Of a stretch of 64,000 nucleotides of DNA, positions 28,794 to 29,414 are shown piece by piece (positions within the stretch are counted from its first letter, which is position 1; each line of letters opens with the position of its first letter). Below the pieces are notes generated by a model, which saw only the letters and a list, made by a program, of their open reading frames with translations, was not told the origin of the DNA and searched no databases. The stretch is from the NCBI RefSeq assembly GCF_041248615.1, contig NZ_CP158426.1; one strand, given 5' to 3'. The stretch is from Escherichia coli (GTDB lineage Bacteria > Pseudomonadota > Gammaproteobacteria > Enterobacterales > Enterobacteriaceae). A program made the translations under genes and the position numbers.

Positions 28794-29414
28794 TTTTATT
28801 CCTACGGGTCTTATTCTGACAATATATCCTGTGTTCCAGACTGCCACATCACCACATCCTGTGCCATTATCTGACTCACATTACATACATCGCATCAGGA
28901 TACAGTAGTAGCACTTTCTGTAATACAGCTTCCGGTTTCTTCCACCATCGCACCGGACTGGCGAGCATGAGGGACAAACCCGCGAACCATAAACGCGGTA
29001 AAAACCCGGTGTGCATCGTTTTTGATTATTCCCGCACACTCGCGCAGAAGGAGTTCCCCGTCGGGCTACGGTCTCTGTTAATACGGGAATACGGCGACGA
29101 TACAGCGCATGATATGTCAGGCTTGAATACCTTTATCCGTTAAAAGGGATATCAGTTAAGTTATCCCGTGTAGGGTATAAGCCATTGTCGAGACCACTCA
29201 TTGAATGGTCTCTGCAATAACCGATGTCTTTCCATCAGTCCGCCACCACAAAGAATCTTTTTTGCCATAAGGCAGGAGGTTCATCTTTCAGTGGCTGCCA
29301 GTGTTATTTCCCCACTTACTGGCTTGGGTTGTTTCGCTGTACTGCCGTAACTGGTTTCCCAGAATAAATTCTGGTTTCATTATCAAGCCCACCCGTAGAT
29401 AGGCTTTGTAATGG

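What the first reader, a model, noticed from the sequence alone, without database searches (positions are those of the whole stretch)
28848..29414. 570-bp segment with no ORF of 60 aa or more, containing an unlisted 58-aa ORF
The ORF at 28967..29143 (MRDKPANHKRGKNPVCIVFDYSRTLAQKEFPVGLRSLLIREYGDDTAHDMSGLNTFIR) falls just under the track threshold. The segment is otherwise apparently non-coding, so it may hold a small gene or an ncRNA.
Basis: seen in the sequence. Interest (0 to 1): 0.2.

Follow-up and report, generated by a model that had tools for sequence, protein, structure and literature searches.

The report
Conserved structured spacer in lambdoid prophage
The 58-codon ORF is a chance reading frame in an untranslated spacer of a lambda-like prophage, but the left third of that spacer is a ~180-base stem-loop element that lambda-like phages, lambda included, keep at the same position through compensating mutations; its function is unknown.

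Summary
Window 28848-29414 is the largest stretch without an ORF of 60 aa or more, and the 58-aa ORF lies at 28967-29143 (+). Neither is unusual by chance.

The ORF is not a gene. Polymorphisms fall evenly on codon positions (17:16:15). The synonymous fraction is 24%, against 26% expected. Most homologous DNA copies lack the start codon or are frameshifted, lambda and K-12 DLP12 included.

The segment is untranslated late-operon spacer, between the post-lysis genes and the packaging module, and it is a mosaic. One piece, 28931-29109, is a discrete 179-bp cassette:
- It occurs in 4591 of 5426 complete E. coli genomes, in lambda (lambdap78-bor spacer), in DLP12 (ybcV-borD), and in Salmonella and Intestinirhabdus phages.
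- It always sits at the lysis/packaging junction, has sharp ends, and is flanked by varying inserted genes.
- Divergent copies keep its length and its helices. In the 24-sequence alignment, 12 of 34 pairs carry compensatory double changes (0 of 500 shuffles reach this).
- The terminal hairpin has at least five stem versions around a conserved loop.
- It matches no Rfam family.

It is most likely a cis-acting RNA structure in the late transcript (- strand). Strand and function are inferred. The rest of the gap is linker with weak terminator-like hairpins.

The parts
28967..29143 (+). 58-aa ORF of the finding; judged a chance ORF across the conserved cassette and the 'tail'
   Evidence: Present as described. 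No codon-position bias, synonymous 13/55 against 26% expected, premature-stop and stop-loss alleles. Start missing or frame broken in most nucleotide homologs. No Pfam or PHROG family. PGAP calls it in some genomes but not in the four identical to the window.
28794..28930 (.). Spacer between the cassette and the start of the TonB_C-domain lipoprotein gene; shared with phage 21
   Evidence: Window 28794-29109 is 91% identical to phage 21. The phage-21 ORF CPT_21_72 that runs through here is cut by a stop codon in the window.
28931..29109 (-). Conserved 179-nt structured cassette (three stem-loop domains), the real feature of the segment
   Evidence: Covariance model R1 scores 203.6 bits on the - strand, with a single copy in the window. 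Found in 4591/5426 E. coli genomes, 11793 places. Sharp ends in at least 10 left and at least 7 right contexts. Covariation shown.
28931..28957 (-). Terminal hairpin (domain III): stem 28931-28936 / 28952-28957, 15-nt loop with a conserved sequence (- strand GCGAUGGUGGAAGAAA)
   Evidence: In the 29-sequence alignment all six pairs show double changes; 4 of 6 do in the 24-sequence alignment. Stem versions: UCCGGU/ACCGGA, UCCUGU/ACAGGA, CUCGAU/AUCGAG, CUCAGA/UCUGAG, CG(G)GAG/CUCCG. Coordinates.
28958..29012 (-). Domain II: linkers plus a variable hairpin (window version CCGCG 28980-28984 / CGCGG 28994-28998), closed by GGG/CCC
   Evidence: The sequence differs completely between lineages, yet each version forms a hairpin at the same place. 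The +1/-1 indels that break the ORF keep the GGG(G)/CCC(C) pairing and the total length of 179.
29013..29103 (-). Domain I: long hairpin; helix 1 29013-29019 / 29097-29103, helix 2 29027-29037 / 29081-29091, apical small hairpins
   Evidence: The MFE of the - strand recovers it. Helix 2 has 5 pairs with compensatory double changes across the E. coli, lambda, Salmonella, I. alba and IMG/VR lineages. Helix 1 is almost invariant. Coordinates.
29110..29189 (.). 'Tail' linker with GGGATA/TATCCC inverted repeats (29146-29151 / 29162-29167)
   Evidence: It follows the cassette in the window-type family. From 29132 onward it is shared at 98-99% with mEp234, HK97, N7 and SEN22.
29190..29212 (.). Hairpin 1 (GAGACCAC / ATGGTCTC), a degenerate copy of the variable hairpin that ends the module in most relatives
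   Evidence: Relatives carry AAAGCCACTC..GAGTGGCTTTTGTAATGG, AAGCCCA..TGGGCTTTGTAATGG and similar at this point. The window copy has lost the T-run.
29213..29384 (.). Segment D: 3' flank of late-strand genes in HK97-like phages and POCJ13; contains two terminator-like hairpins on the + strand (29258-29279, 29359-29374)
   Evidence: 98-99% identical to mEp234, N7, HF4s and EC.P3. Terminator-like sites found: 4, against 1.4 +/- 0.9 in shuffles. No protein family for any small ORF here.
29385..29406 (.). Hairpin 2 (AAGCCCA / TAGGCTT + TGTAATGG), directly after the stop codon of the 95-aa late-strand gene
   Evidence: The same hairpin directly joins the cassette+tail to the 95-aa gene in locus L084 and relatives. 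Coordinates.

Best explanation
Window 28794-29414 is untranslated spacer of the late operon (- strand) of a lambdoid prophage. It lies between the post-lysis accessory genes (Rz, a 50-aa ORF, a 95-aa ORF) and the TonB_C lipoprotein/cos/terminase module. The 58-aa ORF on the opposite strand is a chance ORF.

The spacer is a recombination mosaic. Its left part, 28931-29109, is a discrete ~179-nt structured element that lambdoid phages keep at the lysis/packaging junction, while accessory genes (bor, lambdap78, ylcI, the TonB_C lipoprotein, Rha and others) come and go on either side.

Shown here: it is non-coding; it is conserved with sharp ends; its helices are maintained by compensatory changes while one loop and several linkers stay constant.

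Inferred: it acts as RNA within the late polycistronic transcript (- strand). The terminal hairpin at its 3' edge and the long hairpin at its 5' edge would form a processing or exonuclease-barrier module, separating or stabilising the lysis-gene part of the late mRNA relative to the head-gene part. The remaining 300 bp (tail, hairpins 1 and 2, segment D) are linker sequences carried in with neighbouring modules. Their hairpins are weak, partly bidirectional terminator-like structures that delimit inserted genes.
For: Context:
- Late genes lie on the - strand on both sides of the gap.

Not coding:
- Codon positions 17:16:15; synonymous 13/55 = 24% against 26% expected; other frames no different; a premature-stop allele.
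- In a sample drawn by a nucleotide pattern, most copies have no in-frame upstream start. The major class carries +1/-1 indels. Lambda/DLP12 types end in TAG after 28-31 codons.
- Minus-strand ORFs are equally erratic.
- No real family hits.

Mosaic:
- 28794-29109 is shared with phage 21; 28931-29348 with POCJ13; 29132-29414 with mEp234/HK97-like phages.

Cassette distribution and position:
- 4591/5426 genomes, up to 11 copies per genome, mostly unannotated.
- Identical ends in many contexts, including directly after the Rz stop codon.
- Present in a lambda-like phage between lambdap78 and bor, in DLP12 between ybcV and borD, and in EPEC PP2 between Rha and ylcI.

Structure:
- 96.8% of cells paired; 12 pairs with double changes against 6.6 +/- 1.3 in shuffles (0/500) and 2-7 in slid controls; covariation score 0.282 against 0.181 (0/500).
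- The alignment extended to 29 sequences gives 10 of 27 pairs with double changes, including all 6 of the terminal stem.
- Length stays 170-180 nt in Salmonella, I. alba and IMG/VR lineages.
- Stems vary while the loop is constant, which argues for a folded single strand rather than a duplex protein-binding palindrome.

Strand:
- The same pairs are 96.8% paired on the - strand against 84.3% on +.
- Consensus energy is -25.3/-24.4 on - against -10.5 on +. MFE is -61.8 against -50.4 kcal/mol.
- In K-12 the late-sense strand over the DLP12 copy is transcribed, and Rho-terminated about 170 nt downstream (PMC7815308 supp. 2).
Against: - Single-sequence folding energies are not better than shuffles (z = -0.53 for the - strand, +0.69 for the +; -2.05 for the 285-nt - strand region).
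- The strand preference is partly circular, because the structure was predicted on the - strand. A strand-symmetric stem census gives only 47 against 29. Some Salmonella-type variants have C.A mismatches on the - strand that would be G.U on the + strand.
- No RNA end, processing site or phenotype is known. No Term-seq 3' end near the DLP12 copy was found in the held tables.
- Among many closely related E. coli copies the terminal stem is sometimes mismatched, for example TCCAGT/ACCGGA.
- The cassette is less conserved between lambda and phage 21 (74%) than bor (93.5%) or Rz (98.7%). It is therefore not under unusually strong primary-sequence constraint.
- The proposed function (processing/stability) rests on position and architecture only.
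Confidence: 0.6

Rival explanations
1. The 58-aa ORF is a real small protein gene: a lysogen-expressed 'moron' on the strand opposite the late operon, as bor is.
For: The ORF exists with an ATG. PGAP and Pharokka-type pipelines annotate it or its variants in some genomes (WP_001205133.1; Chlobot and vB_EcoS-569R4). The frame through PVCIVFDYSRTL is open with an upstream ATG in three cassette types. It is followed by a hairpin with a short T-run in many relatives.
Against: No codon-position bias and a neutral synonymous fraction. Start and stop positions vary from 28 to 91 aa, and the major cassette class is frameshifted. The best-conserved block has almost no synonymous variation either, so conservation is at the nucleotide level. 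No Shine-Dalgarno sequence precedes the ATG (read). No promoter-like site lies in or before it within the gap. No family match. It is not annotated in K-12, whose annotation includes recently added small proteins such as ynfT and ynfU. An ORF of this size is expected by chance.
Confidence: 0.05
2. The cassette plus tail is an independent + strand transcript (an sRNA or short mRNA). It would start at the 5' hairpin at 28931 and end at the hairpin with a T-run that follows the tail in most relatives.
For: The sharp left end coincides with the base of a hairpin, as at the 5' end of many stable RNAs. Most relatives end in hairpin + TTTTGTAATGG. Compensatory Watson-Crick changes do not discriminate between strands. 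Some Salmonella-type variants fit the + strand better. In lambda-type copies a promoter is annotated inside the cassette for bor.
Against: The sequences upstream of the left end differ in every context, so no shared promoter can exist there. In several contexts an upstream + strand gene ends in a strong terminator just before the cassette. The lambda-type promoter hexamers are not conserved in the window (TGGACA/TACAAT against GGTCTC/TACGGC). No promoter-like site is found in the gap. In many contexts the cassette is followed by the antisense of Rz, with no terminator. G.U statistics and energies favour the - strand. In EPEC the flanking genes are nearly silent and no RIL-seq entry for this spacer was found in the held tables. 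The window's own hairpin 1 has lost its T-run.
Confidence: 0.13
3. The element works as DNA. It could fold as single-stranded DNA (for example a primosome-assembly or single-strand-initiation-like site used during rolling-circle replication), or it could act as a homology patch ('linker') that promotes exchange of the lysis and packaging modules.
For: Hairpins with G.T pairs also form in ssDNA. The cassette sits exactly between two modules that are exchanged independently, with many combinations of left and right neighbours. Homology-driven exchange between lambda and DLP12 in this very region has been shown experimentally (PMC3945230).
Against: A mere homology patch needs no secondary structure, no conserved length and no compensatory changes. 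No replication or packaging role is known for this region, and its distance to cos varies from about 0.1 to 1.6 kb with inserted genes. A duplex protein-binding palindrome is unlikely because stems vary and the loop is constant.
Confidence: 0.15
4. It is a functionless relic: the decayed upstream region of the bor insertion, dragged along by neighbouring genes, with chance hairpins.
For: It is homologous to the lambda and phage 21 region upstream of bor. Folding energies are no better than shuffles. It is less conserved than neighbouring genes in the lambda/21 pair. The region is dispensable in lambda as far as is known: bor and lambdap78 scored non-essential.
Against: It is present without bor in most contexts, including directly after Rz, so it is not part of the bor insertion. 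Its ends are identical in many independent contexts. Its length is kept across genera. Twelve pairs carry compensatory changes, far above the shuffled and slid controls.
Confidence: 0.07

Closest known systems
Phage lambda lambdap78-bor intergenic region, and the K-12 DLP12 ybcV-borD spacer
   Same: Direct homologs of window 28931-29109, with the same ends, the same three-domain layout and the same position downstream of the lysis genes on the late strand (DLP12 copy 137.5 bits with model R1).
   Different: In lambda, phage 21 and DLP12 the bor gene with its own upstream region is inserted between Rz and the cassette. The lambda type carries an annotated promoter (TGGACA-N15-TACAAT) inside the cassette that the window lacks. 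Domain II is shortened in the lambda type.
Moron boundaries of lambdoid phages (promoter-gene-terminator insertions; Juhala et al. 2000, cited from memory and)
   Same: The cassette is flanked on both sides by sites where accessory genes are inserted. The tail, hairpin 1 and hairpin 2 look like the hairpin terminators that delimit such insertions.
   Different: The cassette is not itself a moron: it has no gene and no conserved promoter. It is retained when the insertions are absent.
Prophage-encoded sRNAs of pathogenic E. coli (AgvB, AsxR, PasA-D, STnc100, DicF, IsrK)
   Same: Non-coding features at conserved positions of lambdoid prophages.
   Different: No Rfam match at E <= 1 to 10. AgvB/AsxR and PasA/C/D lie at the pR' insertion site upstream of the holin. 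PasB lies between tail genes I and J, and its probe sequence is absent from the window. No evidence of an abundant Hfq-bound RNA from this spacer in EPEC.
Intercistronic stem-loops that stabilise upstream mRNA segments (for example REP elements in malE-malF; established knowledge, not tested here)
   Same: An untranslated, hairpin-rich segment inside a long operon transcript. The terminal hairpin lies at the 3' edge of the conserved unit and has no U-tract.
   Different: This element is much larger and multi-domain, with a conserved loop sequence, and it is phage-specific. No stability effect has been measured.
Single-strand initiation / primosome assembly sites of phages and plasmids (established knowledge, not tested here)
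   Same: DNA segments of about 70-180 nt whose function depends on stem-loops in one strand, with little primary-sequence consensus.

Membership tests
Protein-coding small gene (prophage small protein) | Reading frame with start and stop conserved among homologs | tested here: not met
   ORF lengths range from 28 to 91 aa. Most nucleotide homologs have no in-frame upstream start. The major class has +1/-1 indels. Lambda/DLP12 types carry a TAG stop.
Protein-coding small gene (prophage small protein) | Purifying selection on the protein (excess of third-position and synonymous change) | tested here: not met
   Polymorphic sites fall 17:16:15 on codon positions. Synonymous 13/55 = 24% against 26% expected. 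Other frames are no different.
Protein-coding small gene (prophage small protein) | Membership of a protein family, or homologs beyond the conserved DNA itself | tested here: not met
   No Pfam or PHROG hit. All 72 hits are Escherichia/Shigella ORF calls on the same DNA.
Protein-coding small gene (prophage small protein) | Translation detected | not testable with these tools
   No ribosome profiling data were accessible for this prophage. The K-12 annotation has no gene at the DLP12 copy.
Known RNA families (Rfam 15), including prophage sRNAs | Covariance-model match | tested here: not met
   No hit at E <= 1 in 27000-31000. Only chance-level hits at E 1.8 and 8.8 in 28900-29440.
PasB sRNA | Sequence and position (between tail genes I and J, antisense) | tested here: not met
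   The probe sequence is absent from the window at up to 3 mismatches. The PasB locus in E2348/69 lies among tail genes.
Conserved structured non-coding element (cis-acting RNA motif) | Base pairs maintained by compensatory changes | tested here: met
   12 of 34 pairs carry double changes against 6.6 +/- 1.3 in shuffles (0/500) and 2-7 in slid controls. 96.8% of cells are paired. Confirmed on 29 sequences.
Conserved structured non-coding element (cis-acting RNA motif) | Discrete unit with conserved length and ends across lineages | tested here: met
   Length is 163-181 nt in E. coli types and 170-179 nt in the Salmonella, I. alba and IMG/VR types. Ends are identical in many contexts.
Conserved structured non-coding element (cis-acting RNA motif) | Folding energy better than shuffled sequence | tested here: not met
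   z = -0.53 (- strand) and +0.69 (+ strand) for the cassette.
Conserved structured non-coding element (cis-acting RNA motif) | The functional strand is transcribed and the RNA has a defined role | tested here: inconclusive
   The - strand is the late-operon sense strand by gene orientation. In K-12, late-sense reads cover the DLP12 copy, with Rho termination about 170 nt downstream. No RNA ends were found. Function was not testable.
Intrinsic terminators at moron boundaries | G+C-rich hairpin followed directly by a T-run | tested here: inconclusive
   4 terminator-like sites in 28300-30000 against 1.4 +/- 0.9 in shuffles. Two lie in segment D on the + strand. Hairpins 1 and 2 have short or lost T-runs.
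bor promoter region of lambda | Homology to the region upstream of bor | tested here: met
   82% identity over the core to lambda, HK630 and DLP12; 91% to phage 21.
bor promoter region of lambda | Promoter hexamers and a downstream bor gene | tested here: not met
   GGTCTC/TACGGC in the window replace TGGACA/TACAAT. No bor gene is present in the window.
Small mobile element (MITE, IS200/IS605-like) | Terminal inverted repeats or paired subterminal hairpins, target duplication, cognate transposase | tested here: not met
   The two ends (TCCGGT... and ...AGCGCA) are not inverted repeats of each other. No flanking duplication appears in any context. The element occurs only at one position of lambdoid prophages.

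The most novel reading that the evidence does not exclude
The 179-nt cassette is a previously undescribed functional RNA of lambdoid phages, phage lambda included. It would be a structured module in the late transcript at the lysis/packaging junction that is recognised through its conserved terminal loop. Candidate roles are a processing site, an exonuclease barrier, a self-cleaving element or a factor-binding element that controls the relative expression of lysis and head genes.
Probability: 0.3. Interest if true: 0.6.

Novelty: new member of a known kind. Interest (0 to 1): 0.45.

Why it matters
For annotation, the 58-aa ORF and its many variable-length 'hypothetical protein' relatives (some even named arginyl-tRNA synthetase) should not be called as genes.

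For biology, a discrete, covariation-supported structured element sits unannotated in about 85% of complete E. coli genomes, in phage lambda and in K-12's DLP12. It always lies at the boundary between the lysis and packaging modules, where accessory and virulence genes such as bor are inserted.

If it acts in the late transcript, it would be a new cis-acting layer of late-gene control in a model phage. It would also explain why this junction is a fixed anchor for mosaic exchange. It is directly testable in lambda with simple deletions and compensatory mutants.

Tried and rejected
- **Small protein gene.** Homology search, Pfam and PHROGs on all ORFs of both strands, codon-position and synonymous tests, and an ORF census on both strands. 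Rejected.
- **PHROG hits of minus-strand ORFs** (phrog_6954 'Rz-like spanin', E ~1e-3). These reflect ORF calls on the same conserved DNA in two different frames, not a gene.
- **Known RNA families.** Rfam at permissive thresholds gave nothing.
- **PasB and other Pas sRNAs, AgvB/AsxR.** Wrong location and wrong sequence.
- **bor promoter.** The homology is real, but the promoter hexamers are not conserved and the cassette occurs without bor.
- **Sigma-70 promoter inside the gap.** None on either strand.
- **Hfq-bound sRNA in EPEC lysogens.** No entry found, and the neighbouring genes are silent. The tables held are truncated, so this is weak evidence.
- **Term-seq 3' ends at the DLP12 copy.** None found in the held tables.
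- **G.U strand asymmetry as proof of strand.** It is suggestive, but a strand-symmetric stem census is only mildly skewed and Salmonella-type variants disagree. It is kept as a leaning, not a result.
- **Thermodynamic stability versus shuffles.** Not significant.
- **Mobile-element, integron attC-like and Chi-like readings.** No terminal inverted repeats, no core sites, and no Chi octamer (GATGGTGG differs from GCTGGTGG and is not conserved).
- **Cross-species scan of one genome per species with the conserved block.** Only Escherichia species, Intestinirhabdus alba and evidently contaminated MAGs were found.
- **A second copy in the window.** None.
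Full report
**Observation.** The window around the finding is the late region of a lambdoid prophage, with the late genes on the - strand:
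- class II holin, 31611-31826
- lysozyme, 30385-30918
- Rz, 29921-30403
- a 50-aa ORF, 29781-29933
- a 95-aa ORF, 29415-29702
- then the gap
- a TonB_C-domain lipoprotein, 28467-28793
- small and large terminase, 26947-27495 and 25047-27017

No ORF of 60 aa or more lies in 28848-29414, and the 58-aa ORF 28967-29143 (+) has the quoted translation. The gap is the largest of 36 such gaps in the window. However, shuffled sequence has on average 16.7 gaps this long per 64 kb and 3.6 ORFs of 55 aa or more per kb. Neither the gap nor the ORF is therefore improbable in itself. The true untranslated stretch is 28794-29414, because the neighbouring gene starts at ATG 28793.

**The ORF is not a gene.**
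- A search of 5.8 billion proteins finds only 72 Escherichia/Shigella 'hypothetical proteins' of 35-91 aa. They share a core but have different N- and C-termini. Some carry the spurious name arginyl-tRNA synthetase.
- There is no Pfam or PHROG family.
- PGAP annotates the ORF in strain Ch1 but not in the four genomes that are 100% identical to the window.
- Among 33 distinct gap-free homologous sequences, polymorphic sites fall 17:16:15 on the three codon positions. Thirteen of 55 changes are synonymous, against 26% expected for random mutation. The other frames look the same. One allele has a premature stop and others lose the stop.
- In a sample drawn by a nucleotide pattern rather than by the protein, most copies have no in-frame start upstream of the core. 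The commonest class has a +1 and a -1 indel that shift the frame between them. Lambda/DLP12-type copies stop after 28-31 codons.
- ORFs on the minus strand are just as erratic. The weak PHROG hits of two of them are ORF calls on the same conserved DNA.

**The gap is a mosaic.**
- Window 28794-29109 is shared with phage 21 (91%).
- 28931-29348 is shared with Shigella phage POCJ13 (87%).
- 29132-29414 is shared with mEp234, HK97, N7, HF4s and SEN22 (98-99%).
- In most relatives, 28931-29189 is followed directly by a hairpin whose sequence differs between lineages and which carries a short T-run. The window has two such hairpins, 29190-29212 and 29385-29406, bracketing an extra 170-bp segment.
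- Four terminator-like sites are found in 28300-30000, against 1.4 +/- 0.9 in shuffles. One is a strong one at 29728-29747 (-), outside the gap. No promoter-like site is found inside the gap.

**The cassette.** One piece, 28931-29109, behaves as a unit.
- Its two ends are the same nucleotide in every context. The sequence to its left takes at least ten forms and the sequence to its right at least seven. Right-hand forms include the Rz stop codon 13-15 nt away, bor with its own upstream region, and the tail-plus-hairpin of the window.
- It occurs in 4591 of 5426 complete E. coli genomes, at 11793 places, up to 11 per genome, with 695 places on plasmids. It usually carries no annotation.
- It is present in the lambda-like phage HK630 between the lambdap78 homolog and bor, in phage 21, in K-12 DLP12 between ybcV and borD, and in EPEC prophage PP2 between Rha and ylcI.
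- The bor promoter annotated in HK630 (TGGACA-N15-TACAAT) lies inside the lambda-type cassette. The corresponding window bases are GGTCTC and TACGGC. Since the cassette also occurs without bor, it is not the bor promoter.
- In all cases it lies between the lysis module and the packaging module, with accessory genes inserted on either side.

**Structure.**
- Within closely related E. coli copies the evidence was modest. The consensus fold is better on the - strand (-25.3/-24.4 against -10.5 kcal/mol), with a 10-11 bp helix whose polymorphisms stay paired as G.U on the - strand. A strand-symmetric stem census was only mildly skewed.
- The decisive data came from divergent copies: Salmonella phage S107, Intestinirhabdus alba and several IMG/VR lineages. 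They keep a length of 170-180 nt and the same layout, but change both sides of many pairs.
- On a MAFFT alignment of 24 sequences, RNAalifold predicts 34 pairs, 12 of them with compensatory double changes.
- Counting on that structure gives 96.8% paired cells. The 12 double-changed pairs compare with 6.6 +/- 1.3 in shuffles (0 of 500 reach 12) and 2-7 when partners are slid. The covariation score is 0.282 against 0.181 (0 of 500).
- With 29 sequences, all six pairs of the terminal stem show double changes.
- The terminal hairpin (28931-28957) has at least five stem versions: UCCGGU/ACCGGA, UCCUGU/ACAGGA, CUCGAU/AUCGAG, CUCAGA/UCUGAG and CG(G)GAG/CUCCG. They surround a conserved 15-nt loop.
- Helix 2 (29027-29037 with 29081-29091) has five covarying pairs. 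Helix 1 (29013-29019 with 29097-29103) is invariant.
- The middle domain is a hairpin of unrelated sequence in each lineage, closed by GGG/CCC. The very indels that break the ORF preserve this pairing and the total length.
- Variable stems with a constant loop argue for a folded single strand, not a duplex protein-binding palindrome.
- Covariance model R1 finds one copy in the window (203.6 bits, - strand) and the DLP12 and EPEC copies (137.5 and 186.1 bits).
- Rfam has nothing similar.

**Strand and function (inferred).**
- The same pairs are 96.8% paired on the - strand and 84.3% on the + strand. The - strand MFE is 11 kcal/mol lower and reproduces domain I.
- The - strand is the late-mRNA sense strand. 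In several contexts a + strand gene ends in a strong terminator just before the cassette.
- In K-12, direct RNA-seq shows late-sense reads over the DLP12 copy and Rho-dependent termination about 170 nt downstream, as expected for untranslated RNA.
- Against this: the strand test is partly circular, some Salmonella-type variants fit the + strand better, folding z-scores are not significant, and no RNA ends are known.
- I therefore propose, at moderate confidence, a cis-acting RNA module in the late transcript. Its edges are hairpins and it sits between lysis and head genes, which suggests a processing or stability element.
- Three readings remain open: a + strand transcript, a single-stranded-DNA role, or a recombination linker. 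The linker reading alone does not explain the covariation.

**Comparison with known things.**
- The element is homologous to the lambda lambdap78-bor and DLP12 ybcV-borD spacers, for which I found no described function in the literature available here.
- It is not one of the prophage sRNAs. AgvB/AsxR and PasA/C/D lie upstream of the holin. PasB lies among tail genes and its probe sequence is absent from the window.
- EPEC RNA-seq and RIL-seq tables give no sign of an abundant Hfq-bound RNA from this spacer in lysogens.

**Verdict.**
- The finding as stated, a possible small gene, is ordinary: a chance ORF in an intergenic mosaic.
- What lies under it is a widespread, apparently undescribed structured non-coding element of lambdoid phages. 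It is a new member of the known kind 'conserved structured RNA/DNA motifs of phages'.
- Its function is unknown but is directly testable in lambda.

Noticed in passing
window 32516-32955 (-): Rfam cspA thermoregulator hit at full length (159.6 bits). This is the long 5' leader of a cold-shock gene inside the prophage, as in the Qin prophage of K-12.
   Followed up: no
window 54448-54641 (-) and 54781-55103 (+): Two naRNA4 (CssrE) copies and three tRNA-Leu(CAG) genes. This is probably chromosomal flank, so the window spans a prophage/chromosome boundary somewhere before 54 kb.
   Followed up: no
window 29415-29702 (-) and 29728-29747 (-): The 95-aa late-strand ORF matches only positions 139-230 of the 233-position phrog_3527. 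It is preceded by a strong intrinsic terminator and a Shine-Dalgarno sequence. It is either a truncated gene or a stand-alone C-terminal domain.
   Followed up: partly
window 28639-28666 (+): The best promoter-like site of the region (TTAACC-16-TATAAT with TG, 10/12) lies inside and antisense to the TonB_C lipoprotein gene, pointing toward the gap.
   Followed up: no
window 28467-28793 (-): A lipoprotein with a TonB C-terminal domain (Pfam PF03544, E 2.6e-13) that PHROGs files under 'Rz-like spanin' (phrog_1267). The two annotations conflict. The same gene is in phage 21.
   Followed up: no
protein hits P0021, P0048, P0064: Variants of the chance ORF carry the source name 'Arginyl-tRNA synthetase' in UniRef/NCBI. 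This is a propagated misannotation.
   Followed up: no
K-12 NC_000913.3 579345 (+), locus L088: A published Rho-termination region antisense to ybcV lies about 170 nt downstream, in the late sense, of the DLP12 copy of the cassette (579009-579174). Without bicyclomycin there are 218 reads upstream and 34 downstream.
   Followed up: partly
loci L065, L078-L080: Some viral contigs carry two copies of the cassette about 1.8 kb apart. The second copy is truncated at the core and followed by unrelated sequence.
   Followed up: no
window 57706-58260 and 61488-61957: The next largest stretches without an ORF of 60 aa or more (555 and 470 bp).
   Followed up: no
loci L217, L219, L220, L222, L223: Genome records titled as a soil Proteobacteria MAG, Nanosynbacter, Collinsella and Thiomicrorhabdus hold near-identical E. 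coli prophage copies of the cassette. This is most likely contamination of those assemblies.
   Followed up: no
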